IMG/VR virus record: IMGVR_UViG_3300037851_000307
Location: 51,635 to 115,634 of that record
Direction: 5' to 3' (one strand)
DNA: 64,000 bases
Source: a virus
Lineage: Duplodnaviria; Heunggongvirae; Uroviricota; Caudoviricetes
Part shown: positions 32,985 through 61,288 of the stretch, in pieces
How the letters are laid out: every line of letters starts with the position of its first letter
How positions within the stretch are numbered: position 1 is the stretch's first letter
Notes under the pieces: model-generated
Database searches by the model: none
What the model was told of the DNA's origin: nothing
What the model saw: the letters and a program-made list of their open reading frames with translations, nothing else
Made by a program: the position numbers and the translations under genes

Positions 32985-33385
32985 TATAGGGCTCGCAGGA
33001 CATACTTGTTTAGTTCTGCGAGCTTATTTCTAATATAATCCCTATCATTCAATTTTCTATTACGCCCTGAGGGATGGGGCATCGCAAAATGATCAATCTG
33101 GGCATGTTTTAGAACGTTTTCGGCCGTTTTTCCGACCGCTATTATCTTGTAATTTTTAAAACTTTCAAGTTGCGTCCGGATGGGATTTATCTGATGAGAG
33201 TTGAGGGGCTTATTGTTCTCTGTTTTCTCATTACTTACATTAATGAAGTGTAGGTCAGCAGGTATACCTGCAAACCACTTATCAATGGTCTTACGGGACT
33301 TTGTAGATGGGTGAAACGCTGAGTTGTCAGGTGATGCTTGTGATGGATTGCTGCCGACAATTAAGACCTTAAGCATCTTCTCCAC
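32981..33385 (-). CDS. hypothetical protein (GSNPS…HPSGRN motifs, possibly UDG-superfamily-like)
   Basis: 134 aa; weak resemblance to family 4/5 UDG motifs; start lies in the conserved junction motif. Confidence 0.35.
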   Translation of the reverse strand: MEKMLKVLIVGSNPSQASPDNSAFHPSTKSRKTIDKWFAGIPADLHFINVSNEKTENNKPLNSHQINPIRTQLESFKNYKIIAVGKTAENVLKHAQIDHFAMPHPSGRNRKLNDRDYIRNKLAELNKYVLRALY

Positions 33386-33650
33386 CTAAGATAATCTGGT
33401 CAATCATATACTCGTTATACTTTTCTTGTAATAGCTTGTTACCCTTCTCACAAATATCTTTAATCGGGTCATAATCCTTCTTGTCAGAAAGAAAAACCAA
33501 ATGTGATACTTTGATCACTTGAGTAAAGTGCTCTTGCGTTTTCATGTTTATGACAACGGCTGTATAAGACCTATATAAGTCCACCATTGCATTCTCATAA
33601 ATACGTAACTCAAAGCAGCCTAATGTGTGTTTAAATTCTGGTTGTGTCAT
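33369..33650 (-). CDS. small protein ending in -IILGGEDA
   Basis: 93 aa; its 3' end overlaps the junction motif. Confidence 0.45.
   Translation of the reverse strand: MTQPEFKHTLGCFELRIYENAMVDLYRSYTAVVINMKTQEHFTQVIKVSHLVFLSDKKDYDPIKDICEKGNKLLQEKYNEYMIDQIILGGEDA
33375..33398 (-). promoter_or_regulatory. conserved gene-junction motif AGATTATCTTAGGTGGAGAAGATG (instance 1)
   Basis: Encodes -IILGGED of the upstream ORF plus the SD GGTGGAG and start codon of the downstream ORF. Confidence 0.5.
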
Positions 33651-34099
33651 TTTGCCCTATAAGTTAATTCTAAGAAACCTTCAGGAGTATCTAGTACATC
33701 AATAGATAAATCCTTCATCTGACAAATATTATCAAAGTCTCTGTACTTTTCTTTTGCAATAACGCGCGTAATACCACATTGCCACAATAGTCGCATACAT
33801 GCTGCACATGGAGTTAATGTACATACAAGTGTTGTATCTTCCATAGAAACGCCATGCCGCGCGCAGTTGGCGATTAGATTCTGCTCTGAGTGAACTATGT
33901 ATGGGTATTTTTCTGGTCTAGTGTTAGGTAATTCACTATCGTCTGCGCCTCTCACGAAGCCATTAAAACCTGTTGCTATGATTGCACCGGTTTTATTGTT
34001 GACAAGCACAGAACCTACTTGAGTTTCAGCGTCATGTGACCTAGCTGACACTGCTACGCTAACATCCATGTACGTCTGAAGCTTAGTTGGCCTAGTCAT
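33647..34099 (-). CDS. dCMP (deoxycytidylate) deaminase
   Basis: 'HAETQ…' and 'TLTPCAAC' match the CDA-fold H(A/C)E … PCxxC zinc motifs; about 150 aa, typical of phage dCMP deaminases. Confidence 0.85.
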   Translation of the reverse strand: MTRPTKLQTYMDVSVAVSARSHDAETQVGSVLVNNKTGAIIATGFNGFVRGADDSELPNTRPEKYPYIVHSEQNLIANCARHGVSMEDTTLVCTLTPCAACMRLLWQCGITRVIAKEKYRDFDNICQMKDLSIDVLDTPEGFLELTYRAK

Positions 34100-34946
34100 G
34101 TAATGCGCTCCTTGGTTTTGTGAAATACCAATAACGTCTCGCTGTGACTATTTCGTTCTCAAATATCTCTGGATCAGTAGAGTATCTGCTGTTAATGGGT
34201 TTAACTTTTAACATCATAATGTCTTTAATAGAATTTTGACTTGCCCATGTGAGTGCAGACTGTTTTCGCCACGAAGTTAGAGATGCACCAAGTGGACCCA
34301 CATTTATCTCTGCAAGCAAAGGAAATTCTATAGAGACTATCTCTAGTTCATCTACAGAATAACATGTATCTTTATCATATGTCCTATATATTCTGTCGCC
34401 TGGTTTTAACTTTTTAAATGCTTCTCTTGCTAAAGCTGATGTAGATGTATTTTCTCTTATTGCTCTATTTTGTTTTCTGATTTGTTCTCTTTTGGCTTTG
34501 TTATTTTTAAAAGCCTCCAGTGGATCAAAAGACTTTTCATCATCAGACAAGATGACGTGCGCAACTTGATCTGGGTCTTGCTCGAACCACTGATTATCTA
34601 GATCGATAGAAGTACAACTCATAACAGAGACGCCTTCTTTGCCATTTGTAGATATTACTTTTACGTAAGGTATACCATATTCATCTATGTGAATGCACTT
34701 ATATTTTCTTGGAACGGGTGACGAGTAGCTCACTTTTTCTACTGAAACTTCTGTTTGACCAGTTGATCGATTGTATCCCATCATTTTTCTTACTAAGATA
34801 TCACCAACATCAAAATTAAGTTTATGGCGATTTTTCAAGAATCTGTGTGCCTCAGACTCTTTCATTGCAATTTCTACTCTTTTTTTATCTTGCTCGGATA
34901 GTGTATCTATTAGATTGCCGGGATAGTTTGGATCTGCATGACTCAT
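34092..34946 (-). CDS. hypothetical protein
   Basis: 284 aa. Confidence 0.55.
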   Translation of the reverse strand: MSHADPNYPGNLIDTLSEQDKKRVEIAMKESEAHRFLKNRHKLNFDVGDILVRKMMGYNRSTGQTEVSVEKVSYSSPVPRKYKCIHIDEYGIPYVKVISTNGKEGVSVMSCTSIDLDNQWFEQDPDQVAHVILSDDEKSFDPLEAFKNNKAKREQIRKQNRAIRENTSTSALAREAFKKLKPGDRIYRTYDKDTCYSVDELEIVSIEFPLLAEINVGPLGASLTSWRKQSALTWASQNSIKDIMMLKVKPINSRYSTDPEIFENEIVTARRYWYFTKPRSALHD

Positions 34947-34973
34947 GTATAATACCCTTTTGGGATATTATAC

Positions 34974-35222
34974 CTAATCTTGTAATGGAAAACGTTCGCA
35001 CTTGTCGCAGATCATGTATTCATCGTCAGAATCTGGTTGCTTTCTGTAAACCCATTTATGCGGTGGACAGTTTTCTTTTTTCTTCTGTAGTGCCATTGCT
35101 TGCTGCTGAGATAATGCTTCAGCTTCTCCAAGCTTTTTAATGAAATAAATAACTCCAATAACCAACAGTACTGTTATCAAACTATCCATCGATGTCCTCA
35201 TCATTTTCTGATGTTGAATCAC
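34974..35222 (-). CDS. small membrane-anchored Cys protein
   Basis: N-terminal TM helix, C-terminal 'CDKCERF'. Confidence 0.4.
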   Translation of the reverse strand: MIQHQKMMRTSMDSLITVLLVIGVIYFIKKLGEAEALSQQQAMALQKKKENCPPHKWVYRKQPDSDDEYMICDKCERFPLQD

Positions 35223-36776: not shown

Positions 36777-37241
36777 TTATGGTTTCAATACCTCTTCATC
36801 CACAGTAGCATCAGTGTGCGCAGCAAGAAGGTCATCTAGTGATATACCTACGTCAGTAGGTTCTAGATGAATAGAGTAATCTACGTTAAATATTGGTCTT
36901 GAGTTTGGTTGTTTTTTCAAAGCAAATCTTCTATACTTTCTGTTATATCTATCTTCACGTTCCTGTAGAAGTTGTTCTCTATCTGATAATGGAGCTGATA
37001 TGGTATTGATACTATGTAAATGCTTTGTTATTAGTAGTTTATCAATAACCTGTTGTCTGAGTTCTGCAGGTATCTGCTTAAATGCTTCAAGCTTTAAGTT
37101 TTTTTCAACTAAAAGTCGCTGTCTTGTTAGTTCTTCTAACTCTGTTTTTTGTTCATCAGTTAGTCCACTTTCATCTAAGTGGTGTCTCAATGAGTCTAAG
37201 AATTCATCTGTTTCTATGTCGATAAATATCTGCTTACTCAT
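36777..37241 (-). CDS. hypothetical protein
   Basis: 154 aa. Confidence 0.5.
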   Translation of the reverse strand: MSKQIFIDIETDEFLDSLRHHLDESGLTDEQKTELEELTRQRLLVEKNLKLEAFKQIPAELRQQVIDKLLITKHLHSINTISAPLSDREQLLQEREDRYNRKYRRFALKKQPNSRPIFNVDYSIHLEPTDVGISLDDLLAAHTDATVDEEVLKP

Positions 37242-38442: not shown

Positions 38443-38829
38443 CTATTCTCCTGGTTCGCTTTCGAACAGTACTTCTTCCAGGTTGGCATGACGTACGCCA
38501 TAGCCATAACGCTTTTTAGTTAGTTTCTTCATTAGTTGACCAGTACGATTAAACAAATGCTGAAACACAAAAGTAGATTCTTTAACGCTCTTACCTTCTT
38601 TTGTCTTGTAGTCTGGATTGTAGTTCTGTAGCGCGACTACGACTTCAGTGCGTAAGTATTGCCTGAAGTCTCGCATTGTGTAGCCTGTGTTGCCAATTGA
38701 TATGTGATCCTGGTCTTTTCTCTGGCTTGCTTCATTCCAGTTTTTAACTATAGAATCACGGATATAACTTTCAACCATCGCTTCGTATTTGAATATGTCC
38801 TCATTAGTTACTTTCCGTTCTTTGCTCAT
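38443..38829 (-). CDS. hypothetical protein
   Basis: 128 aa. Confidence 0.5.
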   Translation of the reverse strand: MSKERKVTNEDIFKYEAMVESYIRDSIVKNWNEASQRKDQDHISIGNTGYTMRDFRQYLRTEVVVALQNYNPDYKTKEGKSVKESTFVFQHLFNRTGQLMKKLTKKRYGYGVRHANLEEVLFESEPGE

Positions 38830-40459: not shown

Positions 40460-42070
40460 TTATAAGTTGCCTTTTGAGAACTCGGTCATGATTTGTGGAG
40501 TCGAAGTATCGAAACCAACAACATCAAGCATATTCTTATCAGAAGGATCTGCGATGGTGAAACCATTTGCGCAAGTTCCTACTGTGATAAGTTTAGCTTC
40601 AGGCACCGACATTCCAGAGCGATATTTGTTTAAAGCTTGGAAAGGGTGCATTGAGCCAGCATAAGTTTCATTATCAGTATAGATAGCAAACGTGTCGATA
40701 TGTAACTTTTGTGCTAAAGCCCATTGCATAGGCAACGAACAGTCTGTTCCACCCCATGGAGCTTTTTGCATTGTTTTCAACACATCATCTAAACGTTTAC
40801 GCTTAGAAAGATCAAGTCTGTCTATTCCTGATGAGCCGTAACCAGAAGACGAGAAGTATACAACTTCTGAATTAGGTTCAGCTTTTAAAGTAACCATTGC
40901 CATGGCTCCAGCAGCTTCTGCCGCCGTCAAACCTGTTCCAGCGATTCTTGCTCCAAACATAGAACCTGAGCAATCAAGCGCAAGAAGATGGTTTTTGCCA
41001 GAAGTTTCTACGTTTCCAAAGGAAGTATAGAAAGCTTCATCCAACGCATCTATGATGTTGGTTACTGGTGACCAAGTCAGCGACCCCTTATCGCCTCGCC
41101 CTTGCTTATAAATAGCAAGCGCGTTCAGGATAGTGATGGGGTGAACACGCGATCTCTTGATCTGTTCAGCGTTATTCAGACGCTCAACGACTAGCTTAGT
41201 GTTAGTATCTAGGTTTGATTTCAACAAACCTACAGCAGTCATCTTAGCTAGATTTCTTAAAGTTGCAGTCATAGGCATATTCTGATTAAGAGCTTCCCAT
41301 ACTTCTCTTGAGTTCAAGAGTTCAGTGGGAAGCGCTTCACGAGGTAGCCCATACTTTTGTATCAAAGCAACAGCTTGCTTAGTATCTCCAGCTCCAAGAG
41401 TTTGGATTTCTTCAAAACCTTGAACAAGCGCGTGCTTTGTGGTTACTTCTTTGCCGGCTGCATATCTTAATAAGTCGTTCAATGCTGCATCGTTAGATGA
41501 AGCATGGCAAAGACGTAACACATCGCGGTGAGTAAAGTTGTTTCTGTTGCGGTACTTGATGATGTTCATAGCAACTTTATCAATATCATTTTGAGTATAA
41601 AACTTTGCAACACCATTTCTTAGTCCACGAGACCAACCGCGTAATGCTTGGATATTCTCAGTGAACTGAAATAAATGAGTTCCGATTCTACATACATCGG
41701 TGATAGCTTTATATGCTGCATTCTTTGTGGCTTCATCGCCAAAAGTTGTTGCTAAAGCTAACGCAAAGATTGCAGGGTCATTTTTAGGTGCTCGACCAGC
41801 TACAGAGATTTCAACGATTGTTTTCACAGTTCGCAAACCATCTTGCTTGATGCAATCAATAACAGCTTGCGCGTTGTCTACTGTCATCTTTTTCTCTGAC
41901 GCGTAGTATGAACCACCTTCGTTACCTAAGATAAGAAATCGATTCAGTTTAGAGAAGCTGTCTTGAGCAAAAACAAAACCACCGGCATTATTTTTAACCT
42001 GATCTTTACCTGGAACTTGTTGTGTTTGAGGAGTTGTTTTTGTGTTGAAGTGCTTAGTATAAGACATACT
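40460..42070 (-). CDS. rsr: Ro60/TROVE-domain ribonucleoprotein orthologue (Rsr) with C-terminal vWA (MIDAS DCSGS)
   Basis: 'GGFVF…RFLILGNEGGSYY…DPAIFALALA' matches the Ro60 TROVE signature (RFL.LGSEGGTYY); C-terminal 'LALDCSGSM' vWA MIDAS. Start set at MSYTKHF, which has the SD 'aaaggagaaagtATG'. Confidence 0.85.
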   Translation of the reverse strand, partial: SMSYTKHFNTKTTPQTQQVPGKDQVKNNAGGFVFAQDSFSKLNRFLILGNEGGSYYASEKKMTVDNAQAVIDCIKQDGLRTVKTIVEISVAGRAPKNDPAIFALALATTFGDEATKNAAYKAITDVCRIGTHLFQFTENIQALRGWSRGLRNGVAKFYTQNDIDKVAMNIIKYRNRNNFTHRDVLRLCHASSNDAALNDLLRYAAGKEVTTKHALVQGFEEIQTLGAGDTKQAVALIQKYGLPREALPTELLNSREVWEALNQNMPMTATLRNLAKMTAVGLLKSNLDTNTKLVVERLNNAEQIKRSRVHPITILNALAIYKQGRGDKGSLTWSPVTNIIDALDEAFYTSFGNVETSGKNHLLALDCSGSMFGARIAGTGLTAAEAAGAMAMVTLKAEPNSEVVYFSSSGYGSSGIDRLDLSKRKRLDDVLKTMQKAPWGGTDCSLPMQWALAQKLHIDTFAIYTDNETYAGSMHPFQALNKYRSGMSVPEAKLITVGTCANGFTIADPSDKNMLDVVGFDTSTPQIMTEFSKGNL

Positions 42071-42145: not shown

Positions 42146-42149
42146 CGTT

Positions 42150-42429: not shown

Positions 42430-42430
42430 T

Positions 42431-42793: not shown

Positions 42794-42801
42794 TCAAAAT
42801 T

Positions 42802-44862: not shown

Positions 44863-45115
44863 TGTTTGTCTTTATGGCGGGCACTTGTTTACCGCCTAGA
44901 AAGTCTCTAAATAACTCGGAACAACTAGAGCATAAATCTATGTCTTGACTAATGCCGCCAGCAGCACCATCGTAGCCACGAGCCCACATTTCAACTTTTT
45001 TAGCGTGAGTTCCGCCGTTGCCAAAAGGGCCTTCAGCTCTTTCGCCTTGAGCGTCACATCTATCACATATTAAAATTGTTTTAGCCGGAATCGTCTTTGC
45101 GCCCATTGTTGTCAC
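44849..45115 (-). CDS. small Cys-rich protein
   Basis: CDRCDAQG…CSSC. Confidence 0.45.
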   Translation of the reverse strand: MTTMGAKTIPAKTILICDRCDAQGERAEGPFGNGGTHAKKVEMWARGYDGAAGGISQDIDLCSSCSELFRDFLGGKQVPAIKTNNENS

Positions 45116-45320
45116 CTAAAATTATAGAGTCAGCCTTTTCAGACTCAAGCTCGTCAATGCGTTTGTTTAAAAGCTCAATCTCTTTGTTGAGGAAATCAAA
45201 GTTTTTGTTACTCATATCAATCTCCTGATTTAGCTGAGTAACAAATTTTCTCAACGCAGCTTCATTGTTCTCAAAGCGTTCTTTGATCGCTTCAACAAGC
45301 TTAGTGATACCGTCCATCAT
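45081..45320 (-). CDS. small coiled-coil protein
   Basis: 79 aa. Confidence 0.45.
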   Translation of the reverse strand: MMDGITKLVEAIKERFENNEAALRKFVTQLNQEIDMSNKNFDFLNKEIELLNKRIDELESEKADSIILGDNNGRKDDSG

Positions 45321-48359: not shown

Positions 48360-48688
48360 ATCCCCAGAGCTTTACGTACTTCCTCAGGGATATCACCTAG
48401 ATTTATGTTTGTCAAATCTGGTTCTTTAACTTTCTTTGTTCTTTGAGATTTTTCTCCATAGAACAAATCGCCTTCTTGTAAGGTCATAAGTTGTACTGGC
48501 CCTGGGTTAGTACTTTTAATTACTTGAGGTTTCGCTGGTTCCGCAGCGGGACACTTGGTGATTTTACCGCCCTTGGCCAAAAAATCTTGTAGGAGCTTTT
48601 CAGTATTACTCACATTTTTCTCCATTGTTGTGATCTTTTGTCTGTTCGGTTTTGATTTTTTAGGTTTATTCGTTGAAATCGTCGCCAA
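48356..48688 (-). CDS. hypothetical protein
   Basis: 110 aa. Confidence 0.4.
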   Translation of the reverse strand: MATISTNKPKKSKPNRQKITTMEKNVSNTEKLLQDFLAKGGKITKCPAAEPAKPQVIKSTNPGPVQLMTLQEGDLFYGEKSQRTKKVKEPDLTNINLGDIPEEVRKALGI

Positions 48689-49112
48689 GTAATACTCCGT
48701 CGAAAGATTGTGGAAATATCTTCATCAAATCCTCAAGGAAATGATTATTTTCTTTTGCTCTTTTATATTCTACAATTTTTTGACGAAGTGCTTCAAATTC
48801 TCGGTTTAATTTTGTGTATTTCCAGTACCAGCAGTAATCAGATATTATGGATTTTTCTCCCCTGAAAGCCGAAGCAGTGTCATTTATAACGCAGTGAAAT
48901 CTGCCATCTTTCTTTCGACTTATAGTGACTGTTTTAGTGGGAGAAAAGTAGCCTTGTGAGTCGTTTTGAGTTTGCGGGGTCCACTTTACAATGACCTCAT
49001 CGCTCATAATTCCAGGGTCGGGGAGGGTATTAAACCAGTCGTGGTGCTCGCCCACATTCCACTGTTTTTTAAGCTCTATGAGAGCCGCTCTAATAAGATC
49101 CGCTTTAGTCAT
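48666..49112 (-). CDS. hypothetical protein (start moved to internal Met with SD GGGAAGGA)
   Basis: The ORF-track start at 49235 overlaps ClpP; the Met at 49112 is preceded by GGGAAGGAAC. Confidence 0.45.
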   Translation of the reverse strand: MTKADLIRAALIELKKQWNVGEHHDWFNTLPDPGIMSDEVIVKWTPQTQNDSQGYFSPTKTVTISRKKDGRFHCVINDTASAFRGEKSIISDYCWYWKYTKLNREFEALRQKIVEYKRAKENNHFLEDLMKIFPQSFDGVLLGDDFNE

Positions 49113-50910: not shown

Positions 50911-51316
50911 CTTTTCTAAAGTACTTTCTTTTATTTTTACTAAAAAATCTACAATATGGAGTCTTAAAGAAGAACGAATAAGAGTCAGAATCGTCTATGT
51001 GTAAGTCTATTCCTTCTCTTAAGCAAAAATCTCCCTTAGTTTTATCCCACAAGTAGTCATCTAAGTAGTGATTACCTTTATCATCTACCATCATTTCTGT
51101 ACCTATAGATTTATGGTAGTCAACTATAGAAAACAAATGAGTGTAAGTGATATTAAGTCGTTGCAGTTCTTCGCGCAAGCGAGGTCCATCTGGTGGACCT
51201 GTGATAACATAAACTTGATGCCCAGCATCAACTAGAGTTTTAGATAAAACAGAGAAGAGTTCAGGAACCTCATCCATTACTCCATGTATATCAAGACCGA
51301 TCTTTAGAATCTTCAT
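50897..51316 (-). CDS. HAD-like protein (5'(3')-deoxyribonucleotidase-like, variant motif I DIHGV)
   Basis: 'KIGLDIHGVMDE' versus the NT5C 'DMDGVLAD'. Confidence 0.4.
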   Translation of the reverse strand: MKILKIGLDIHGVMDEVPELFSVLSKTLVDAGHQVYVITGPPDGPRLREELQRLNITYTHLFSIVDYHKSIGTEMMVDDKGNHYLDDYLWDKTKGDFCLREGIDLHIDDSDSYSFFFKTPYCRFFSKNKRKYFRKDENT

Positions 51317-51662
51317 CTAATACCGTCCTTTCTATAACCCACGATTGAAACGCAGCATTTATGCTTTTGTCGTTGCCCCACATAGGGTCTATAACTATCC
51401 ACTTAAGTGGTAAGTCTGTTTGCAGATACATTAAAAACTTTGTTTCAGGACAAACAGATAGCTTTCTTAGATGACCATAGTGGCTAAGCATAATCATCTC
51501 ATCAAACCAAAACATCTGCCTACTGTCTTCGGTGTAATCTGGGTCTCTTGCTGGTTGAGTTAGCTGATTATTAGGGTGATGCTTCAATAACTCTGGAGGA
51601 GTTTGAGAATGATGTACATCCATAATAATTATAGGATTTCTATTTGGAGGATTAGCCACCAA
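51291..51662 (-). CDS. small protein, paralog family member 1
   Basis: Shares 'WFDEMI…CP.T.FLMY…D.PLK' with the next two ORFs. Confidence 0.5.
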   Translation of the reverse strand: MVANPPNRNPIIIMDVHHSQTPPELLKHHPNNQLTQPARDPDYTEDSRQMFWFDEMIMLSHYGHLRKLSVCPETKFLMYLQTDLPLKWIVIDPMWGNDKSINAAFQSWVIERTVLDEDSKDRS

Positions 51663-51942
51663 GCACCTCCTTTTCTATTATGTGGTCTTGATATGCATCC
51701 CATACTTCGCGTCCATAATGATGATCTGGATCTAATAAGCAATACTTTAAAGGATAGTCACTTTCAAAGTACATGAGGAAATTAGTTACTGGGCATATTG
51801 CCATCTTTTTAGGAATCCACATTCCATCACTTCTAATAGATGTAAGAATCATCTCGTCGAACCAAATTCTTACATATGGTCTAATAAAATCAGGCTTTCT
51901 ATTAGGAACAATTAAGCCATTATTTGGATGTGGGGTGTTCAT
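51652..51942 (-). CDS. small protein, paralog family member 2
   Basis: 'RIWFDEMILTS…ICPVTNFLMYFESDYPLKY'. Confidence 0.5.
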   Translation of the reverse strand: MNTPHPNNGLIVPNRKPDFIRPYVRIWFDEMILTSIRSDGMWIPKKMAICPVTNFLMYFESDYPLKYCLLDPDHHYGREVWDAYQDHIIEKEVLGG

Positions 51943-52225
51943 GAAATATAGCCTGTTCTACAAGAAAGTTGTTATAAGCTTCCATTGTGCAAGATTCTGG
52001 TGGAAAAACTTCCCAACCATATACATGCTTTTGAAGCATAAGGCAGCTGGTTAGTGGACATATTGCAAGCTTTTTCATAGCAAATCCACCCATTGGGTAA
52101 CTTACCTTACATGTCATTTGTTCAAACCAGAATTCTTTATCACCTACTTCAAAATCACTAGGTGTATCTGGCACTGTAACATCGTTGTTCCATATAGCTT
52201 TTTGTCGTTCGTATTTGCTATCCAC
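51920..52225 (-). CDS. small protein, paralog family member 3
   Basis: 'FWFEQMTCKVS…ICPLTSCLML'. Confidence 0.5.
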   Translation of the reverse strand: MDSKYERQKAIWNNDVTVPDTPSDFEVGDKEFWFEQMTCKVSYPMGGFAMKKLAICPLTSCLMLQKHVYGWEVFPPESCTMEAYNNFLVEQAIFHEHPTSK

Positions 52226-54177: not shown

Positions 54178-54858
54178 TTAAAACGGAATGTCTTCATCGT
54201 CGTCTTTGTCGATGTACTCGTTTTTGGTCAGTGTGGTTTTTAGTACTATTGTACCATCGTCTTGTTTTTCAGCTGATAGAATTTTTTCTTTTTCTACAAC
54301 AGTTCCACCAGCTTTTTTGATTAGCATGTCAACAAGGTTATTTTTGACATGCTGCTGTACAACCTTATTCATTTCTTCTTTTAGCATGGTTTCAATTAAG
54401 CGAGACACGGTATGACTATCGATGCACCGCTTAACTTGATTCCTAATATTTGCCTGTATAGCTTCTCTGATCTTTCGTTGTTCCTCAGGGTTGCCAATGA
54501 ACGTTTCTGGCGCTAACTGATTAGCTATAATGAACTCTTTTAGAGGTTGGCCGATCAAACCGTCCATAACTGATCCAGTTTTAATCTCCCAATCGCTCCA
54601 TTTTGTTTCAAAGCCTAAAGCAGACCATACGATCTTTTTCATATTCTGCGAAGCTTCTTTTAAGACATTTGCTTTAGTGTCCTCTAACATAGCTTCAAAC
54701 GAAATATTTCTCATTGACTCAAGATCTACATTTAAAACAACGGCATCCGCTACATCATCATCTGATACTGGAATAAGCTTTAAAGTACCCCAATCTTCTT
54801 TGATTTCGTAAAGTTTGTTCTCGAATTTTGCTAATTTTGCCTTTGGATCTAAAGCCAT
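54178..54858 (-). CDS. hypothetical protein ending in SSB-like acidic tip (…DKDDDEDIPF)
   Basis: C-terminal DDDEDIPF copies the bacterial SSB C-terminal tip (DDDIPF); start moved to MALDPK, which has the SD GGGGGTAAT. Confidence 0.55.
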   Translation of the reverse strand: MALDPKAKLAKFENKLYEIKEDWGTLKLIPVSDDDVADAVVLNVDLESMRNISFEAMLEDTKANVLKEASQNMKKIVWSALGFETKWSDWEIKTGSVMDGLIGQPLKEFIIANQLAPETFIGNPEEQRKIREAIQANIRNQVKRCIDSHTVSRLIETMLKEEMNKVVQQHVKNNLVDMLIKKAGGTVVEKEKILSAEKQDDGTIVLKTTLTKNEYIDKDDDEDIPF

Positions 54859-54879
54859 ATTACCCCCGATATACACTCA

Positions 54880-56760: not shown

Positions 56761-57028
56761 AAAAAGCTCTTTGCATCGTGGGAATAAAGCCACTTCTATT
56801 GGTGACGATACGCAGAGCGGTTTTTCTTATGTAATTATGTTAGCCGTTGGATTGTTAGAGCGCCGGCTGCGCTATCGTATGTGACCACTGCGGATCAATA
56901 CCCGTAAGTGAACGCACTCCAGCACCGGCAGATTGAATGCCTGTGAGACCTAGAATGTTTATTTTGTTCATTACGTTTTTCATATATACCTAATATACCA
57001 TGTTTTGGTATTAAAACTTAAAAATTTG

Positions 57029-57262
57029 TTATTTTTTTAGTAAAATTTGCTCTATCTCTTGTTCCATAGCTGATGTGAGCAAATCAAAAGCCTCACCGGC
57101 TTCTTCTAATGTTTCATAACGCCAAACTACTAAATTAGTGCCTTGCTTTATTATGTTAAATTCAGTCATATCATAAGGTGGCTGATTGTCTATAACAAAA
57201 AAGAAATCGTTTGCAAGTAGGACTTTATATTTGTTTTTATAAAGATCACCTTTTTTCAGCAT
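57029..57262 (-). CDS. hypothetical small protein
   Basis: 77 aa; start lies in a junction motif. Confidence 0.4.
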   Translation of the reverse strand: MLKKGDLYKNKYKVLLANDFFFVIDNQPPYDMTEFNIIKQGTNLVVWRYETLEEAGEAFDLLTSAMEQEIEQILLKK

Positions 57263-57281
57263 TATCCACCTAGAATTATCT
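57260..57281 (-). promoter_or_regulatory. gene-junction motif variant AGATAATTCTAGGTGGATAATG (instance)
   Basis: Encodes -KIILGG of the upstream ORF and the start of the downstream ORF. Confidence 0.45.
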
Positions 57282-57483
57282 TGTCTGCATGGTCATCTAC
57301 TATCTTTTTCCAGTTTCTGTTAAGAAGACCAACCAACCACATTCTTTGTCCTTTTGACGTCATGTAAAGACTGTCATCGTGTATCCAACGAACTTCATAT
57401 TCGCTATATGTACCTTCATGATAACCAGGTATATGGCGTATGAACTTTATATATAGATATGGACTCCAATCATATTCTTCCAT
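57262..57483 (-). CDS. small protein ending -KIILGG
   Basis: 73 aa. Confidence 0.45.
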   Translation of the reverse strand: MEEYDWSPYLYIKFIRHIPGYHEGTYSEYEVRWIHDDSLYMTSKGQRMWLVGLLNRNWKKIVDDHADKIILGG

Positions 57484-57860
57484 TACTCTTCCAACAAAAT
57501 TTTATCGATTCGGTCGATTTTTTCTTGAGCTCTTCTTTCCATAATATCAAACATTTTATCTACATTGTCGCTTTTTAATGCTTTGCGCCCCCAATGGCAT
57601 TTCATAACAATTGCTTTTTCTTCTTTATCAACTAGATAGTACCTATATTCAGAGCGATGAGCATCATACATCTCAATATGCTTACCATTGACAGTACATA
57701 TGCCTCGCTTACCATAAGAGACGCATATCATTTGGTAATAATCGTTTTCTGCAAAAACAGAAGCATGCTTATGGTTTTTAAACCTTTGAATTGCAAAATT
57801 ATCTTCATCAACAACGTTTAATGTCCAAAAACTAGTTATTGTGTTGTTATCAACGCTCAT
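57483..57860 (-). CDS. hypothetical protein
   Basis: 125 aa. Confidence 0.45.
   Translation of the reverse strand: MSVDNNTITSFWTLNVVDEDNFAIQRFKNHKHASVFAENDYYQMICVSYGKRGICTVNGKHIEMYDAHRSEYRYYLVDKEEKAIVMKCHWGRKALKSDNVDKMFDIMERRAQEKIDRIDKILLEE
57505..57514 (-). promoter_or_regulatory. ACCGAATCGA motif instance
   Basis: About 25 nt upstream of the 57262..57483 start. Confidence 0.4.
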
Positions 57861-58089
57861 CTTCTCCCCCTAAAATAATCTTCTCTGCTTTTTCAACTAC
57901 GGTTTTATAGACCCTTCGAGCTTTACGCACTGCAGCACCTACAGATCTTTCACCTTGGCCATATCTCTTACCGGTATGAACGCAGAAAACACCCCAGTAG
58001 AAGTTTCTAAACTCATGATATCCTTTTACCTTAAAGTGGTACTCCCAAGCTTCAGTTTTCTTAAGATCTTCTAATAAATCGTCACTCAT
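57850..58089 (-). CDS. small protein ending -KIILGGEDER
   Basis: 79 aa. Confidence 0.45.
   Translation of the reverse strand: MSDDLLEDLKKTEAWEYHFKVKGYHEFRNFYWGVFCVHTGKRYGQGERSVGAAVRKARRVYKTVVEKAEKIILGGEDER
57858..57880 (-). promoter_or_regulatory. gene-junction motif (instance)
   Basis: AGATTATTTTAGGGGGAGAAGATG. Confidence 0.45.
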
Positions 58090-58441
58090 GAAAAATTATA
58101 CTTTCTATCTCTTCTTCAAGATACTTAATGTAACTAGGTCCATGTGTATAAATCCAATAGTAACAATCTGCTGTAACTCTACCTTCCCCATCAACATAGT
58201 AATTATCTATGTTTTCATCTTCTGTTAAGTACCATCCATCGACTCTTTCACCAGAAATTTTGGAGAAAACACCAAACAAAACACAAGGTGCACTTAATGG
58301 TTTTTTTAAACCTATTGATTCAATTGTTTCAACTGGAATAATGTCAAAGTGGTGCAATATGGGTTTAGCTTTGTCATAATACTGAACGCCATCAGTATTA
58401 GGCACTTCTTTCATTTCTTCTTCAGTAGGTTTGCGTCTCAT
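58082..58441 (-). CDS. hypothetical protein
   Basis: 119 aa. Confidence 0.45.
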   Translation of the reverse strand: MRRKPTEEEMKEVPNTDGVQYYDKAKPILHHFDIIPVETIESIGLKKPLSAPCVLFGVFSKISGERVDGWYLTEDENIDNYYVDGEGRVTADCYYWIYTHGPSYIKYLEEEIESIIFHE

Positions 58442-58697
58442 ACTGTTTCCAAAGCAGTTCTCGTGCCTTTTTAGCTTCTTCTGTTAATGGTACGTTTTCT
58501 TTCAACTCAGTCATTAAATCAGGATACTTAGGAGAGAATTCTCTAAAGAACATCAGTATATTTTCTGAGTTGTACTTTGCAAAAAGCTTTATCGCTGTAA
58601 TTTGCTCATCATACGACATGCTTTTTAAAGCTTCAACCATCTGTTGTTCTGTGATTGCTTTATTTTTACACTTTTCATAAAAATCACTCAATGTCAT
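58422..58697 (-). CDS. hypothetical protein
   Basis: 91 aa. Confidence 0.4.
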   Translation of the reverse strand: MTLSDFYEKCKNKAITEQQMVEALKSMSYDEQITAIKLFAKYNSENILMFFREFSPKYPDLMTELKENVPLTEEAKKARELLWKQYETQTY

Positions 58698-58902
58698 CTT
58701 GTACCCCTAATATCTCTAAGTCAACCATGTGGTCTTGATACTCAGCAAACAAATCGTTAACAGCTTTAATGTAGTCTTTCTCTAAACCAGGTGGGAACCA
58801 AGTCTTAAGACCCCAAAAATGCCAATAGGCATCCTTAGTGGACATATCCCTCACTTGCTCTTTAAGGGTTTTCTTGTAATCATCTACAGTGACATGTATC
58901 AT
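58684..58902 (-). CDS. hypothetical protein
   Basis: 72 aa; motif about 45 nt upstream. Confidence 0.4.
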   Translation of the reverse strand: MIHVTVDDYKKTLKEQVRDMSTKDAYWHFWGLKTWFPPGLEKDYIKAVNDLFAEYQDHMVDLEILGVQDDIE

Positions 58903-59124: not shown

Positions 59125-59202
59125 TGATGCGTGGTGTTTAATGGCAAGCATTTCTGGCTCTTAACCAGTAGGGTATAGGTTCGAATCCTATCGCATCAAC
59201 CA
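59125..59202 (+). tRNA. tRNA-Lys (anticodon CTT)
   Basis: Acceptor TGATGCG/CGCATCA; D-arm GTGT-(10-nt loop)-GCAT; anticodon loop CTCTTAA; T-arm ATAGG-TTCGAAT-CCTAT; A-CCA. Confidence 0.7.
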
Positions 59203-59208
59203 ATTTAT

Positions 59209-59285
59209 TGGCTCATGGTGTTTAACGGTAGCATTCTAGACTTTTAATCTACGGGGTCTCGGTTCGAATCCGAGTGGGCCAACCA
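59209..59285 (+). tRNA. tRNA-Lys (anticodon TTT)
   Basis: Paralog of the previous tRNA; anticodon loop CTTTTAA; T-arm CTCGG-TTCGAAT-CCGAG; A-CCA. Confidence 0.7.
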
Positions 59286-59297
59286 TTTTATGTTTAG

Positions 59298-59372
59298 GGC
59301 GTCATCGACTACTGGCTAGGTCACCAAGCTTTCACCTTGGAGAAGCGGGATCGATACCCGCTGACGCCTCCA
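59298..59372 (+). tRNA. tRNA-Glu (anticodon TTC)
   Basis: Acceptor GGCGTCA/TGACGCC; D-arm GACT-ACTGGCTA-GGTC; anticodon arm CCAAG-CTTTCAC-CTTGG (perfect); T-arm GCGGG-ATCGATA-CCCGC; T-CCA. Confidence 0.75.
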
Positions 59373-59598
59373 ATTTTTTCTTATTAAATCTCTCAAGGTT
59401 TCTTTTTCTATTCTCTTCAATTTCTTCTTCTGTGTAAACATACGCAGGGTGATTTGTCATAAAGACACCAAATACCCAAAAATTTAACTCCCAATAATCG
59501 CCATCATAATAATCATGCTTATATCCCCACTCTGGTTGCTTATGTATTGCGCAAAAATAAATCGCTATGCAGCGTTCTTTTGAGTTATAAATTCTCAT
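59332..59598 (-). CDS. hypothetical protein (3' end overlaps tRNA-Glu on the opposite strand)
   Basis: 88 aa. Confidence 0.4.
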   Translation of the reverse strand: MRIYNSKERCIAIYFCAIHKQPEWGYKHDYYDGDYWELNFWVFGVFMTNHPAYVYTEEEIEENRKRNLERFNKKKLEASAGIDPASPR

Positions 59599-60005
59599 CC
59601 AAAAACAATCTCCTCAAATAACTCTGTCATTATCTCTCGCGCTTCTTCAACGATAATATCTCTAGCAGCTTGATCGTCTCTAGAATAACTCCATTTTTCT
59701 TTATTCTTTTTCTTATTGAGTCCTTCAAACGCCGCAGTACTAGCAGCAGACCATTGCACTTTAAGTCCTTCTGGGTCTGCAAATATCTGATTGTAAACTT
59801 CTTCAAACTTATCAATCAAAGAATCCTCTGACTCAGAGATTAGACCTCTGTTGCCAACAATGAGCATTTTCATAAGTTGATCTTCGTGAAACTCTTCGCA
59901 AGAAAGTTTATACATAGCAATGAAATAAGCTATCCTCTTTTTCATCTGAGGGGCTTGCTCTAGATGCTTAATTCTTCTTTTCTTGCCTTTAAACTTCTTG
60001 CTCAT
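59595..60005 (-). CDS. hypothetical protein
   Basis: 136 aa. Confidence 0.45.
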   Translation of the reverse strand: MSKKFKGKKRRIKHLEQAPQMKKRIAYFIAMYKLSCEEFHEDQLMKMLIVGNRGLISESEDSLIDKFEEVYNQIFADPEGLKVQWSAASTAAFEGLNKKKNKEKWSYSRDDQAARDIIVEEAREIMTELFEEIVFG

Positions 60006-60322
60006 AATGTATTCAAGAATCTTTCTAAGCCTTTAAGCTCACTTTGAAGAGATGGAAACTTAGGCATGTTTCTCGTTGTTCTTTTAGGTATGTAACCATC
60101 AGGATAAGCTCCGTGAATTACTTTTTCTTGCAGAAGCTCATAAGACGAGCCACTGATAGCTGGAGCTTGCATAGTACCCAAACCTGGGTCAACTCCATGG
60201 CAATGCATGCAGCTCATTCTATAAATATCCCTGCCTCTTTCAAGCAGGGCTTCATCGTAATAGTATTTAACTTTTGTTTCTCGACATCCAGTTAAAAATA
60301 AAAGTACGAATAGATATTTCAT
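60002..60322 (-). CDS. c-type cytochrome lipoprotein (class I, CxxCH)
   Basis: Lipobox 'LLFLTGC'; haem-binding 'CMHCHG'; downstream '…PAISG…YELL…NMPKF' fits the mono-haem cytochrome c (c553/c6-like) pattern. Confidence 0.55.
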   Translation of the reverse strand: MKYLFVLLFLTGCRETKVKYYYDEALLERGRDIYRMSCMHCHGVDPGLGTMQAPAISGSSYELLQEKVIHGAYPDGYIPKRTTRNMPKFPSLQSELKGLERFLNTL

Positions 60323-60537
60323 AAGTCGCCAACCAATATTATCCTATCTACCAAATCATTTTCAAAGTTTCGTTTCATGCGGGCATATTTTTGAGGGTTT
60401 TTGCGACTAGTAACTTTTATTCTCGCTGCACAACTCTTAGAGCACGAACGTGACCAGCCTCTCTTTAAATCTGCAGTTCTAGCTTTAAACAAACCACAGC
60501 AAGCTATGCATCTTATCTCAATGATCTTACCTCTCAT
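60319..60537 (-). CDS. small basic Cys-rich protein ending -RIILVGDL
   Basis: 72 aa. Confidence 0.4.
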   Translation of the reverse strand: MRGKIIEIRCIACCGLFKARTADLKRGWSRSCSKSCAARIKVTSRKNPQKYARMKRNFENDLVDRIILVGDL

Positions 60538-60866
60538 AGAGGTATATACCCATGCTTGATTGTTTCGCTTATTTCTTTAACATCGTCAAACACTCTGTGG
60601 GGCTTGCACATAGCAAAATCTACTTCTTTTTCTAAGCCAAGAGCTTTTACTACTTTTTCTGCCCACTCGTGACCAGATGCAGACCAAACCACAACTGTCC
60701 AGCCTAACGTATTGTAATCTTTAATTTTTTGAACATGCTTAGTGTGAACTTGAAACACACGATCGTTGATGGTTACTTCTGGTAAAGTTCTATCAACTTT
60801 ATACCACATTATTAAAGTATCATCACAGTCGAAAAAAGCAACTCTATCTGATTTAATCGTTACCAC
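60534..60866 (-). CDS. HAD-like small phosphatase
   Basis: Motif I 'AFFDCDDTL'; 'VVVWSASG' motif II-like. Confidence 0.45.
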   Translation of the reverse strand: MVTIKSDRVAFFDCDDTLIMWYKVDRTLPEVTINDRVFQVHTKHVQKIKDYNTLGWTVVVWSASGHEWAEKVVKALGLEKEVDFAMCKPHRVFDDVKEISETIKHGYIPL

Positions 60867-61092
60867 TTTCGCCCCCTAAGATAATTACATCTACTTGGTT
60901 TTTTATTGATTTTGCCATATAATCACATATAGCAACACAAAACGTATAATCTTTGCTGCGTGCCTCAACTATAAAATTTCTTGAACTTTTACAGAGTATT
61001 CTATATTCTTTGTTGCCGCTTGAACCACGACCTTGAAGTTCATAGAACTCATTTTCAAAAGCTTTATACCACCGACTGGTAGCTCTACCCAT
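60853..61092 (-). CDS. small protein ending -VIILGGESGND
   Basis: 79 aa. Confidence 0.4.
   Translation of the reverse strand: MGRATSRWYKAFENEFYELQGRGSSGNKEYRILCKSSRNFIVEARSKDYTFCVAICDYMAKSIKNQVDVIILGGESGND
60864..60888 (-). promoter_or_regulatory. gene-junction motif (instance)
   Basis: TAATTATCTTAGGGGGCGAAAGTG. Confidence 0.4.
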
Positions 61093-61288
61093 TTTCTACA
61101 CCTAAGATAATCTCTTCAATCTCTTGCTCTTCAAATCTCTTGTGGTCTTTGAGCCAAACTTCTGCAGCTTCTTCACAAGAAAAACCAGGAGTTATTTGAT
61201 CACCGTTCTCAAATACAACCCAGCCTTGCTCATGTCTGCACCAGTTTATCTCAAAGCGATTCATTAGTAATCGCCCTTTTCTATGCAA
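61085..61288 (-). CDS. small protein ending -EIILGVENG
   Basis: 67 aa. Confidence 0.4.
   Translation of the reverse strand: MHRKGRLLMNRFEINWCRHEQGWVVFENGDQITPGFSCEEAAEVWLKDHKRFEEQEIEEIILGVENG
61090..61113 (-). promoter_or_regulatory. gene-junction motif (instance)
   Basis: AGATTATCTTAGGTGTAGAAAATG. Confidence 0.45.

What the first reader, a model, noticed from the sequence alone, without database searches (positions are those of the whole stretch)
33375..61113. Conserved 24-nt gene-junction element (AGATTATCTTAGGTGGAGAAGATG) at five junctions in three loci
Five unrelated small ORFs end in -(I/V)ILGGE(D/S) (33369, 57262, 57850, 60853, 61085; diverged copies at 60319 and 51652). This is because the same nucleotide element sits at each junction. 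It encodes the last residues of the upstream ORF, a GGTGGAG Shine-Dalgarno and the start codon of the downstream ORF. Conservation beyond what translation needs points to a nucleic-acid-level function. Possibilities are a translational operator in the style of T4 RegA, an endoribonuclease site (T4 RegB cleaves GGAG in early mRNAs), or a recombination hotspot that shuffles small-gene cassettes.
Basis: seen in the sequence. Interest (0 to 1): 0.6.

Follow-up and report, generated by a model that had tools for sequence, protein, structure and literature searches.

The report
Shared protein tail overlapping ribosome-binding site
The repeated 24-base "junction element" of this uncultured phage is mainly the coding sequence of a short C-terminal peptide shared by about 18 otherwise unrelated small proteins, fused to the ribosome-binding site and start codon of the next gene, and not an RNA or DNA signal in its own right.

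Summary
On the minus strand, AGATTATCTTAGGTGGAGAAGATG occurs exactly at 33374-33397. It recurs with 2 mismatches at 57858 and 61090, with 6 at 60864, and with a 2-nt indel near 57260. IILG[GV] occurs five times in the six-frame translation, always 0-5 codons before a stop.

The five copies belong to a larger set. About 18 minus-strand ORFs end in hydrophobic-[D/E]-x-[I/V]-[I/L]-[L/F]-G. The six-residue regex gives 14 of 105 genes against 0.34 expected. Two related metagenomic phages give 13/48 and 4/25. About 120 other phage loci give 15/2960.

Conservation is at the peptide level. Third codon positions carry about 0.1 bit. Orthologous tails are saturated at synonymous sites (pS 0.92, against 0.78 in gene bodies) with low pN (0.21). 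Tail-trimmed bodies show no similarity.

The Leu-Gly-Gly-Glu codons (YTA GGN GGN GAR) read a strong Shine-Dalgarno in frame.

There is no RNA structure, no promoter-terminator cassette and no RegA or RegB homologue. Limited evidence links tails to cassette indels.

Most likely the tail is a shared docking or recognition peptide. Its partner is unknown.

The parts
33369..33404 (-). Tail and junction of the 93-aa ORFan g33369 (..M-I-D-Q-I-I-L-G-G-E-D-A*). It holds the exact 24-mer at 33374-33397. The Leu codon is 33387-33389. The downstream UDG-like gene starts at the ATG 33374-33376, 10 nt after the Leu codon.
   Evidence: UDG Pfam hit; g33369 has no homologue among 5.8e9 proteins
57850..57888 (-). 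Tail and junction of g57850 (..A-E-K-I-I-L-G-G-E-D-E-R*). The 24-mer copy with 2 mismatches is at 57858-57881. The g57483 start ATG lies 10 nt after the Leu codon.
61085..61120 (-). Tail and junction of g61085 (..I-E-E-I-I-L-G-V-E-N-G*). The 24-mer copy with 2 mismatches is at 61090-61113. It is 88% identical over 32 nt to the 33374 copy (family D8).
60853..60894 (-). Tail and junction of g60853 (..V-D-V-I-I-L-G-G-E-S-G-N-D*). It has 6 mismatches to the 24-mer. The HAD-phosphatase gene starts at a GTG 10 nt after the Leu codon. The orthologous junction in L092 differs at 4 synonymous sites.
57262..57288 (-). Tail of g57262 (..A-D-K-I-I-L-G-G*). The stop and start overlap as TAATG, and the g57029 start lies 8 nt after the Leu codon.
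60319..60351 (-). Tail of the Zn-ribbon protein g60319 (..V-D-R-I-I-L-V-G-D-L*). The next ATG lies 11 nt after the Leu codon. Homologues of the Zn-ribbon body in Vibrio and Pseudomonas phages lack the I-I-L tail.
57483..57509 (-). Tail of g57483 (..I-D-K-I-L-L-E-E*, TAATG junction). The L092 orthologue is 31% identical in the body but has an identical 9-residue tail with 3 synonymous changes.
57029..57055 (-). Tail of g57029 (..I-E-Q-I-L-L-K-K*), the last gene of the run. It has no SD and no coupled downstream gene. Its 3' end matches the second tail of a two-module 147-aa protein in L092, which marks an in-frame tail-to-tail indel.
58082..58108 (-). Tail of g58082 (..I-E-S-I-I-F-H-E*). The downstream ATG sits inside TTT-CAT-GAG.
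58684..58725 (-). Tail of g58684 (..V-D-L-E-I-L-G-V-Q-D-D-I-E*). The next ATG lies 10 nt after the Leu codon. All five D-L-E-I-L codons differ synonymously from the L092 orthologue.
59595..59618 (-). Tail of g59595 (..L-F-E-E-I-V-F-G*). Remote homologues (30-41% identity) all end in [I/L]-F-E-[D/E/K]-x-phi-[L/F].
51652..51678 (-). Tail of g51652 (..I-E-K-E-V-L-G-G*). Here the SD AAGGAGGTG is read as K-E-V.
51920..51961 (-). Tail of g51920 (..V-E-Q-A-I-F-H-E-H-P-T-S-K*), a paralogue of g51652. The downstream ATG sits inside TTT-CAT-GAA.
45081..45134 (-). Tail of the coiled-coil protein g45081 (..A-D-S-I-I-L-G-D-N-N-G-R-K-D-D-S-G*). The first downstream ATG opening an ORF of at least 40 aa (85 aa) lies exactly 10 nt after the Leu codon, although the ORF's own stop is 11 codons further on.
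51291..51335 (-). Weaker tail of g51291 (..V-I-E-R-T-V-L-D-E-D-S-K-D-R-S*), conserved in the L010 orthologue (..V-V-E-R-T-V-L-D-A-T-E-D-R-S*).
48666..48704 (-). Weaker tail (..S-F-D-G-V-L-L-G-D-D-F-N-E*) of a 189-aa minus-strand ORF.
38443..38481 (-). Weaker tail of g38443 (..N-L-E-E-V-L-F-E-S-E-P-G-E*).
36777..36803 (-). Weaker tail of g36777 (..T-V-D-E-E-V-L-K-P*).

Best explanation
The element is a composite gene junction made of three parts.

(1) The 5' part (..GAN NNN ATT ATC TTA) encodes the end of a short C-terminal peptide: hydrophobic-[D/E]-x-[I/V]-[I/L]-[L/F]. About 18 small non-structural proteins of this phage carry it, and so do proteins of its relatives. Their bodies are otherwise unrelated: a Zn-ribbon, a coiled coil, beta-rich ORFans. 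The peptide is kept by purifying selection on the amino acids. This step is shown.

(2) The next codons, (Y)TA GGN GGN GAR, which read Leu-Gly-Gly-Glu, are the in-frame reading of a strong Shine-Dalgarno sequence. They match UAAGGAGGUGA with TAA changed to TTA so that the frame stays open. The downstream start codon lies 10 nt after the Leu codon, or 8 nt in the TAATG type. This step is shown.

(3) The few residues after Gly-Gly-Glu come from running out of frame into the next gene until a stop appears. This step is shown.

The near-identity of three copies results from the same peptide, the same SD and a three-codon Ile / TTA-biased Leu usage. A small residue suggests recent copying between junctions.

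Inferred and not shown: the peptide acts as a shared docking or recognition tag. It would address many fast-evolving small proteins to one common partner, in the manner of the hydrophobic-acidic C-terminal epitope (LDFLFG) that several unrelated T4 proteins use to bind the gp45 clamp. Because the peptide ends the functional protein, genome compaction places the next gene's SD directly behind it.
For: Enrichment at C-termini:
- The motif lies within 12 residues of the C-terminus in 14/105 window genes (0.34 expected), 13/48 in L010 and 4/25 in L130. In about 120 other phage loci it is 15/2960.

Peptide-level rather than nucleotide-level selection:
- Position -5 was not used to pick the tails, yet it is I/A/V/F/L in 40 of 40. 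Third codon positions carry 0.04-0.2 bit.
- For 9 orthologue pairs against L092, tails have pS 0.92 and pN 0.21, and bodies have pS 0.78 and pN 0.28.
- Examples: g57483 body 31% identical with an identical 9-aa tail and 3 synonymous changes; g58684 D-L-E-I-L with 5 of 5 codons synonymously different.
- Codon identity among all window tails equals expectation, 152 against 153.3.

Unrelated bodies:
- hhalign of 21 tail-trimmed families gives a best P of 0.0025 in 210 tests.
- g60319 is a Zn-ribbon (phrog_17137, residues 1-56) whose homologues in other phages end differently.
- g45081 is a coiled coil.

Deep conservation:
- Remote homologues of g59595 (30-41% identity) all end in [I/L]-F-E-[D/E/K]-x-phi-[L/F].
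- A more distant relative, L093, has the tails EKEVLE*, EKELLG* and DDMLLVNK*.

Independence from the SD:
- g57029 and its L092 orthologue keep I-L-L-K at the end of the operon, with no SD and no coupled gene.
- Coupled junctions of the structural genes have SD-derived Gly residues but no hydrophobic triplet.

The SD part:
- Anti-SD duplexes are -6 to -11 kcal/mol for the 10-nt class, -6.2 on average for other starts and -3.0 for random sequence.
- The distance from the Leu codon to the start is 10 nt in 10 junctions and 8 nt in 6.

Precedent:
- T4 gp43 ends in EKASLDFLFG. The same epitope occurs in T4 ligase, and highly similar hydrophobic-acidic C-termini are carried by gp33 and gp55. In the ligase peptide bound to gp45 it forms an amphipathic helix with three consecutive hydrophobic residues (PMC6212786, PMC2988020).
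Against: - No partner has been identified.
- No clamp gene was seen in the 74 kb available. The phage's own Pol III alpha (L009) ends in ..SEIEKIER, without the tail.
- The structure models have low confidence and disagree. The tail is helical in g57029 (pLDDT 52) and a short strand in g61085 (pLDDT 69).
- The position of the tail relative to the downstream start is tight. This could also mean a translation-linked role for the peptide or the RNA.
- The 4-5 core copies share more codons than codon usage predicts (30 against 18.5, P 0.005; I-I-L codons alone 16 against 9.1, P 0.02).
- Common descent with total loss of body similarity cannot be excluded with profiles of 1-4 sequences.
- Only one close relative (L010/L092) supplies most of the orthologue data.
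Confidence: 0.6

Rival explanations
1. Diverged paralogue family. All tail-bearing ORFs would descend from one ancestral small gene by serial duplication. Their bodies evolved past recognition, and the C-terminal segment survives because it is the most constrained structural element.
For: - Orthologue bodies evolve very fast. g57483 and g58082 are 28-31% identical between the two phages, yet the g57483 tail stays identical.
- Many of the ORFs are tandem and of similar size.
- An unrelated phage (L131) has a clear tandem family with a shared C-terminal NF[K/R]W..R motif.
- g51652 and g51920 are true paralogues (E 1e-9).
Against: - Tail-trimmed profile comparisons are at chance.
- The tail sits on a Zn-ribbon family that has homologues in Klebsiella, Vibrio and Pseudomonas phages. 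The Vibrio and Pseudomonas homologues that were aligned lack I-I-L.
- It also sits on a coiled-coil protein and on the separate g59595 family.
Confidence: 0.18
2. Recombination linker. The repeated junction would serve as a short-homology site that lets ORF cassettes be inserted, deleted or reordered while keeping the reading frame and the next gene's translation signals. This is the function of PeSL elements in T4-type phages.
For: - g57029 (77 aa) equals the first module of a 147-aa L092 protein joined exactly at the I-L-L codons to that protein's second tail and 3' flank.
- The adjacent genes g57483 and g57262 are in the opposite order in L092, with breakpoints at TAATG.
- Gene content between the two clusters differs by whole cassettes.
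- The core copies share more codons than expected.
- The 33374 and 61090 copies, 27 kb apart, are 88% identical over 32 nt.
Against: - The nucleotide sequence is not maintained. pS is 0.92 in orthologous tails, and codon sharing among all tails is at expectation in both phages.
- The homology tracts are only about 14-32 nt long.
- Whole-gene indels in packed operons must break near gene borders anyway.
- Selection for evolvability cannot explain amino-acid conservation with synonymous turnover.
Confidence: 0.12
3. RNA-level regulatory site. The element would be a translational operator (like T4 RegA) or an endoribonuclease target (like T4 RegB, which cuts GGAG) shared by a co-regulated set of early mRNAs.
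For: - The element overlaps the SD and start of the downstream genes.
- It recurs in a presumably co-expressed, non-structural gene set on one strand.
Against: - Third codon positions are free, and orthologues are saturated at synonymous sites.
- GGAG is present in only 2 of 5 core copies.
- No RegA or RegB family hit appears among the scanned or precomputed Pfam annotations of the window and flanks.
- There is no RNA structure and no Rfam match.
- The hydrophobic triplet also occurs where no gene follows.
Confidence: 0.04
4. Pure by-product of translation-initiation constraints. A U-rich, unstructured tract 5' of the SD, plus the SD itself, read in frame, would happen to give I-I-L-G-G-E with no selection on the peptide.
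For: - L-G-G-E is fully explained by the SD.
- The junctions are unstructured.
- The triplet lies at a fixed distance from the start.
Against: - Coupled junctions of the structural genes lack the hydrophobic triplet.
- Relatives use GC-containing codons such as CTG, CTC and GTT for the same residues.
- The motif extends to an acidic residue at -4 and a hydrophobic one at -5, with a strict 3-nt periodicity.
- The triplet is present at operon-terminal genes.
- If U-richness were the selected trait, the tract would appear in all three frames.
Confidence: 0.06

Closest known systems
[quoted passage not shown]
   Same: Both are a short acidic-plus-hydrophobic peptide with three consecutive hydrophobic residues followed by Gly. 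Both sit at the extreme C-terminus of unrelated phage proteins and are interchangeable between carriers. In the T4 ligase peptide bound to gp45 it forms an amphipathic helix (PMC6212786 and PMC2988020). Compare g59595 ..LFEEIVFG* and g57262 ..ADKIILGG*.
   Different: - Here one extra residue separates the acidic residue from the triplet.
- I and L are used rather than F and L.
- There are about 18 carriers, nearly all small proteins of unknown function.
- The phage's own polymerase lacks the tail.
- No clamp gene was identified, and binding is untested.
This is an analogy of mechanism and not a membership claim.
Translationally coupled gene junctions with the Shine-Dalgarno sequence embedded in the 3' end of the upstream ORF (ordinary in bacteria and phages; stated from general knowledge)
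   Same: The GGNGG lies 5-6 nt before the start codon. The start overlaps the upstream ORF. The Gly-Gly-Glu residues are dictated by the SD.
   Different: This does not explain the conserved phi-[D/E]-x-phi-phi-L segment upstream of the SD. That segment is absent from the coupled junctions of this phage's structural genes.
PeSL (promoter-early stem-loop) cassettes of T4-type phages
   Same: Both are a short repeated sequence at the borders of small non-essential ORFs in a variable region. Both are associated with indels and reordering between related phages (PMC2839356 and PMC4122927; here).
   Different: PeSLs are intergenic and combine a sigma-70 promoter with a terminator stem-loop. They are conserved as DNA. 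This element is coding, has no promoter or stem-loop, and is conserved as a peptide.
T4 RegB cleavage sites and RegA operators
   Same: They overlap the SD and start regions of a set of early-type genes.
   Different: GGAG is not conserved. There is no nucleotide-level conservation between orthologues. No regA or regB homologue was found.

Membership tests
SD-in-ORF translationally coupled junction | Sequence complementary to the 16S rRNA 3' end, a few nt upstream of the start codon | tested here: met
   Duplex energies are -6.3 to -11.3 kcal/mol for the 10-nt class, against a mean of -6.2 for other starts and -3.0 for random 20-mers.
SD-in-ORF translationally coupled junction | The downstream start codon lies inside or abuts the upstream ORF | tested here: met
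   The start lies 10 nt (10 junctions) or 8 nt (6 junctions) after the Leu codon. The upstream stop lies 0-11 codons further on.
T4 RegB target | Conserved GGAG in the SD of the target mRNAs | tested here: not met
   The core copies read GGTGGAG, GGGGGAG, GGGGGCG, GGTGTAG and GGTGGAT. Only 2 of 5 contain GGAG.
T4 RegB / RegA system | A phage-encoded RegB endoribonuclease or RegA repressor | tested here: not met
   No such Pfam hit appears in 37 proteins scanned or in the precomputed annotations of L008 and L009. Only about 74 kb of a contig of at least 115 kb was seen, so absence is not proven.
PeSL regulatory cassette | Intergenic location | tested here: not met
   The element lies inside the upstream ORF and overlaps the downstream start.
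PeSL regulatory cassette | Sigma-70-type promoter plus terminator stem-loop | tested here: not met
   No promoter-like or terminator-like site recurs at the junctions. Fold z-scores are between -1.55 and +0.84.
PeSL regulatory cassette | Indels or rearrangements between relatives that break at the element | tested here: inconclusive
   There is one tail-to-tail in-frame indel and one swap of adjacent genes. Only one relative was compared, and no control was run for ordinary gene borders.
T4-type clamp-binding C-terminal epitope | Acidic residue plus three consecutive hydrophobic residues plus Gly at the extreme C-terminus of unrelated proteins | tested here: met
   The logo of 40 tails is phi-[DE]-x-[IV]-[IL]-[LF]-G. 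For comparison see LDFLFG. The spacing of the acidic residue differs by one.
T4-type clamp-binding C-terminal epitope | Present on the replicative polymerase and other clamp clients | tested here: not met
   Pol III alpha (L009:1394-4879) ends in ..NISEIEKIER. The SSB-like proteins end in DDDEDIPF (window) and ..DDDIFALADNILNS (L009).
T4-type clamp-binding C-terminal epitope | A cognate clamp, and physical binding | not testable with these tools
   No clamp family hit was found in the regions available. Binding needs an experiment or a complex prediction.
Ubiquitin-like or double-glycine processed C-termini | Invariant Gly-Gly at the processing or conjugation site | tested here: not met
   Position +1 is Gly in 21/40 tails and position +2 in 10/40. 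Many tails end in ..ILLEE*..ILLKK* or ..IVFG*.
Single paralogous gene family | Detectable similarity outside the shared tail | tested here: not met
   hhalign of tail-trimmed families gives a best P of 0.0025 in 210 tests. The blastp matches are confined to the tails except for g51652 with g51920. Power is low, with 1-4 sequences per profile.

The most novel reading that the evidence does not exclude
The tail is a portable address tag. In this phage clade a dozen or more fast-evolving, unrelated small proteins would be recruited to one hub through the same C-terminal peptide. The hub could be a clamp-like tool-belt, an AAA+ or protease machine, or the capsid interior.

Because the tag is fused to the next gene's ribosome-binding site, whole ORF cassettes can be gained, lost or reordered by junction-to-junction recombination without losing either the tag or downstream expression. 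That would be a built-in system for diversifying a host-takeover or anti-defence repertoire.
Probability: 0.2. Interest if true: 0.75.

Novelty: new variant of a known kind. Interest (0 to 1): 0.45.

Why it matters
If the tail is a docking tag, one peptide would give a handle on a whole set of ORFan proteins in an uncultured phage lineage related to SPO1 only at about 30% capsid identity. Finding the single partner would assign a cellular address to more than a dozen proteins of unknown function. It would also show how phages keep a constant interface while the effector bodies diversify.

There is also a methodological point. A repeated nucleotide element at gene junctions can be produced entirely by a shared peptide plus an embedded Shine-Dalgarno sequence. 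Synonymous-site tests against even one diverged relative separate the two readings.

Tried and rejected
- DNA search of the 4.6-kb cluster against 50,697 phage records: no match.
- Exact 17-mer scan of IMG/VR: 6 scattered hits, not examined further; judged chance matches.
- A single-protein locus search with the HD protein found nothing. Profile searches then found many HD-bearing phages. None outside the small clade carries the tails.
- g33369 has no homologue at all.
- PHROG scans of ten tail-bearing ORFs placed only the Zn-ribbon g60319 in a family.
- Structured-RNA reading: rejected.
- Promoter-terminator cassette reading: rejected.
- Programmed frameshift or fusion: considered from the sequence and dropped. 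There is no slippery site, and the SD spacing fits initiation.
- Ubiquitin-like or double-glycine reading: dropped because Gly-Gly is present in only a quarter of the tails. It had been prompted by a ThiS/ThiF pair in the relatives.
- AlphaFold single-sequence models of g57029 and g61085: low confidence (pLDDT 52 and 69). A BFVD fold search gave nothing with E below 0.4.
The rest of this genome was therefore not examined.

Full report
**Context.** The window is part of an uncultured tailed phage. Its source is a JGI contig of 115,634 bp, and it is also present in Logan run SRR12687606. Its major capsid protein is about 30% identical to those of SPO1-like Bacillus phages. There is no DNA-level relative among 50,697 phage records. 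Positions 1 to about 33,000 carry plus-strand structural genes. Positions from about 33,000 to 64,000 carry minus-strand non-structural genes: dCMP deaminase, thymidylate synthase, UDG, Ro60, SSB, HD and HAD hydrolases, two tRNA arrays and many small ORFans.

**Check of the observation.** The element lies on the minus strand.
- The 24-mer is exact at 33374-33397.
- It has 2 mismatches at 57858-57881 and at 61090-61113, and 6 at 60864-60887.
- It aligns to the fifth junction (about 57260) only with a 2-nt shift.
- None of 100 shuffles gave 3 matches.
- An independent repeat search recovers it as families D6 and D8.
- IILG[GV] occurs five times in the six-frame translation, each time 0-5 codons before a stop of a small minus-strand ORF.

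The element covers the last residues of one ORF, a Shine-Dalgarno (SD) sequence and the next start codon.

**The five copies are the tip of a larger set.** Listing the C-termini of all ORFs shows a wider tail on about 18 minus-strand ORFs. Its form is hydrophobic(-5)-[D/E](-4)-x(-3)-[I/V](-2)-[I/L](-1)-[L/F](0)-G(+1)-[G/E](+2).
- A six-residue version lies within 12 residues of the C-terminus in 14 of 105 window genes. Internal occurrences predict 0.34.
- Searches with conserved neighbours (the HAD and HD genes) and with the Zn-ribbon ORF found two relatives with the same gene order. One is NODE_706/FRDC01000751 (L010/L092). The other is a Logan contig (L130).
- These relatives carry the tail on 13 of 48 and 4 of 25 genes.
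- About 120 other phage loci fetched in the same searches carry it on 15 of 2,960 genes.
- A more distant relative (L093) has weaker versions: EKEVLE*, EKELLG* and DDMLLVNK*.

**Peptide or nucleic acid?** Four tests agree on the peptide.
1. In an alignment of 40 tails, first and second codon positions are informative. Third positions carry 0.04-0.2 bit. Position -5, which was not used to select the tails, is hydrophobic or Ala in 40 of 40.
2. For nine orthologue pairs between the window and L092, tail codons have pS 0.92 and pN 0.21. Gene bodies have pS 0.78 and pN 0.28. Individual cases are striking. In g58684, D-L-E-I-L has all five codons changed synonymously. In g60853, IILGGE has four synonymous changes in 18 nt. 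For g57483 the bodies are 31% identical, yet the nine-residue tail RIDKILLEE is identical with three synonymous changes.
3. Codon sharing among all window tails equals what codon usage predicts: 152 against 153.3. The same holds in L092.
4. The hydrophobic triplet is present where no gene follows. g57029 and its orthologue end in ..ILLK[K/N]* before an intergenic region. It is absent from the coupled junctions of the structural genes, which show only SD-derived Gly residues.

There is also no RNA structure (z between -1.55 and +0.84), no Rfam family, no recurring promoter or terminator, and no RegA or RegB homologue. GGAG itself is present in only two of the five core copies.

**The SD part.** Leu-Gly-Gly-Glu corresponds to (Y)TA GGN GGN GAR. 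This is the complement of the 16S rRNA 3' end (UAAGGAGGUGA) read in frame, with TAA replaced by TTA or CTA.
- Predicted anti-SD duplexes are -6 to -11 kcal/mol. Other starts average -6.2 and random 20-mers -3.0.
- The downstream start codon lies 10 nt after the Leu codon in 10 junctions and 8 nt after it in 6 junctions of the TAATG type.
- This holds even when the upstream ORF runs on for 5-11 more codons, as in g45081.
- The residues after Gly-Gly-Glu therefore come from incidental out-of-frame reading of the next gene.

In a second class the SD AAGGAGGTG is read as Lys-Glu-Val, as in g51652 (..EKEVLGG*).

**Are the ORFs paralogues?** No similarity is detectable outside the tails.
- blastp matches are confined to the tails, except for g51652 with g51920.
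- hhalign of 21 tail-trimmed families gives a best P of 0.0025 in 210 comparisons.
- The carriers include a Zn-ribbon family with homologues in Klebsiella, Vibrio and Pseudomonas phages. The Vibrio and Pseudomonas homologues that were aligned end differently (..DLDWGAS....DEHFGNVV..).
- They also include a coiled-coil protein.
- In the g59595 family, 30-41% identical homologues from a 1.84-billion-protein library all end in [I/L]-F-E-[D/E/K]-x-phi-[L/F].

The profiles are thin, however, and common descent cannot be ruled out completely.

**Why three copies are nearly identical.** Most of the identity follows from the same peptide, the same SD and codon usage. The five IILG copies still share more codons than expected: 30 against 18.5 (P 0.005), and for the I-I-L codons alone 16 against 9.1 (P 0.02). 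The 33374 and 61090 copies are 88% identical over 32 nt although they lie 27 kb apart. This suggests some recent copying between junctions.

Comparison with L092 gives two structural hints of the same kind.
- g57029 (77 aa) corresponds to the first module of a 147-aa L092 protein. It is joined exactly within the I-L-L codons to that protein's second tail and its conserved 3' flank.
- The neighbouring genes g57483 and g57262 are in the opposite order in L092, with breakpoints at TAATG.

These points support a secondary role of the tails as cassette borders. They rest on one relative and lack a control.

**Mechanism.** What is shown: a peptide under purifying selection, directly followed by the SD and start of the next gene. 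What is inferred: the peptide is a shared docking or recognition tag.

The nearest documented analogue is the hydrophobic-acidic C-terminal epitope of T4. There gp43 ends in ..EKASLDFLFG, and gp33 and gp55 have highly similar hydrophobic-acidic C-termini. Ligase carries an internal copy. These motifs are interchangeable. In the ligase peptide bound to the gp45 clamp, the motif is an amphipathic helix with three consecutive hydrophobic residues (PMC6212786, PMC2988020).

The resemblance is one of form. Here the carriers are small proteins of unknown function. The phage's own Pol III alpha lacks the tail. No clamp gene or other partner was identified. The single-sequence structure models have low confidence and disagree on helix against strand for the tail. 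A fold search gave nothing.

**Verdict.** The nucleic-acid interpretation is not supported. The element is the coding sequence of a shared C-terminal peptide fused to an ordinary, strong translation-initiation region, with a possible side role in cassette shuffling. The peptide motif itself appears undescribed: literature searches found nothing comparable. It is moderately interesting as a candidate hub-binding tag.

Noticed in passing
window 40460-42800 (-): The phage encodes a Ro60/TROVE+vWA protein (Pfam E-values 1e-46 for TROVE and 5e-59 for the vWA domain). Just upstream lie five copies of GGGTCG(A/T)AGA..GGTTA(C/T)C mixed with tRNA-like T-arm sequences. There is also a sub-threshold Rfam YrlA (Y-RNA-like) hit at 42479-42545 (35.8 bits, E 5.6e-6). 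This is probably a phage Ro60 plus multi-module Y-RNA locus (family D15).
   Followed up: partly
L010:2113-6504, L092:4049-8440, L130:2422-6967: The related phages carry, just upstream of the Band_7 gene, a ThiS-like ubiquitin-like protein (69 aa, ending ..KGGG* or ..KGGS*) and a ThiF/E1-like protein. L010 and L092 also carry an M10-type peptidase upstream. Between the ThiS-like and ThiF-like genes lie several proteins with extremely acidic C-termini ending in an aromatic residue. The window ends before the equivalent region.
   Followed up: no
window 59125-59372 (+): Three tRNA genes (Lys-CTT, Lys-TTT, Glu-TTC) lie on the plus strand, antisense within the minus-strand small-ORF cluster. The ORF g59332 overlaps tRNA-Glu antisense and may not be a real gene.
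   Followed up: no
L092:16002-16445: A 147-aa protein is built of two modules. Each module ends in the tail motif (..ELEEILLLK.. internally and ..AEKILLKN* at the end). The window orthologue g57029 has only the first module.
   Followed up: yes
L131:10830-15188: An unrelated phage contig (Logan SRR21686404) has its own tandem array of small ORFs (85-109 aa). They share a different C-terminal motif (..NF[K/R]W..R*). C-terminal signatures on small phage ORF arrays may therefore be more general.
   Followed up: no
window 21524-21830 (+): Collagen-like Gly-X-Y repeats (9-nt period, 15 or more copies) lie at the start of the 1,454-aa ORF 21491-25855, presumably a tail fibre.
   Followed up: no
window 54178-54876 (-) and L009:5357-6403: Two proteins have SSB-type acidic tails. 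One is a 232-aa protein ending ..DKDDDEDIPF*. The other is a 348-aa protein ending ..SVDDDIFALADNILNS*. Neither has a Pfam hit.
   Followed up: no
window 56985-57028 (-) and L092:16446-16490: The intergenic sequence after g57029 (GTTTTAATACCAAA[A/T]CATGGTATATTAGGT[A/T]TATATG) is almost identical between the two phages, although coding regions are saturated at synonymous sites. It may be a promoter or other regulatory site ahead of a conserved 42-aa ORF.
   Followed up: no
window 41913-41935 (-): The repeat finder groups an internal stretch of the Ro60 gene (CTTATCTTAGGTAACGAAGGTGG) with the junction elements. It lies inside a long ORF with no stop or start nearby and is a coincidental match.
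   Followed up: yes
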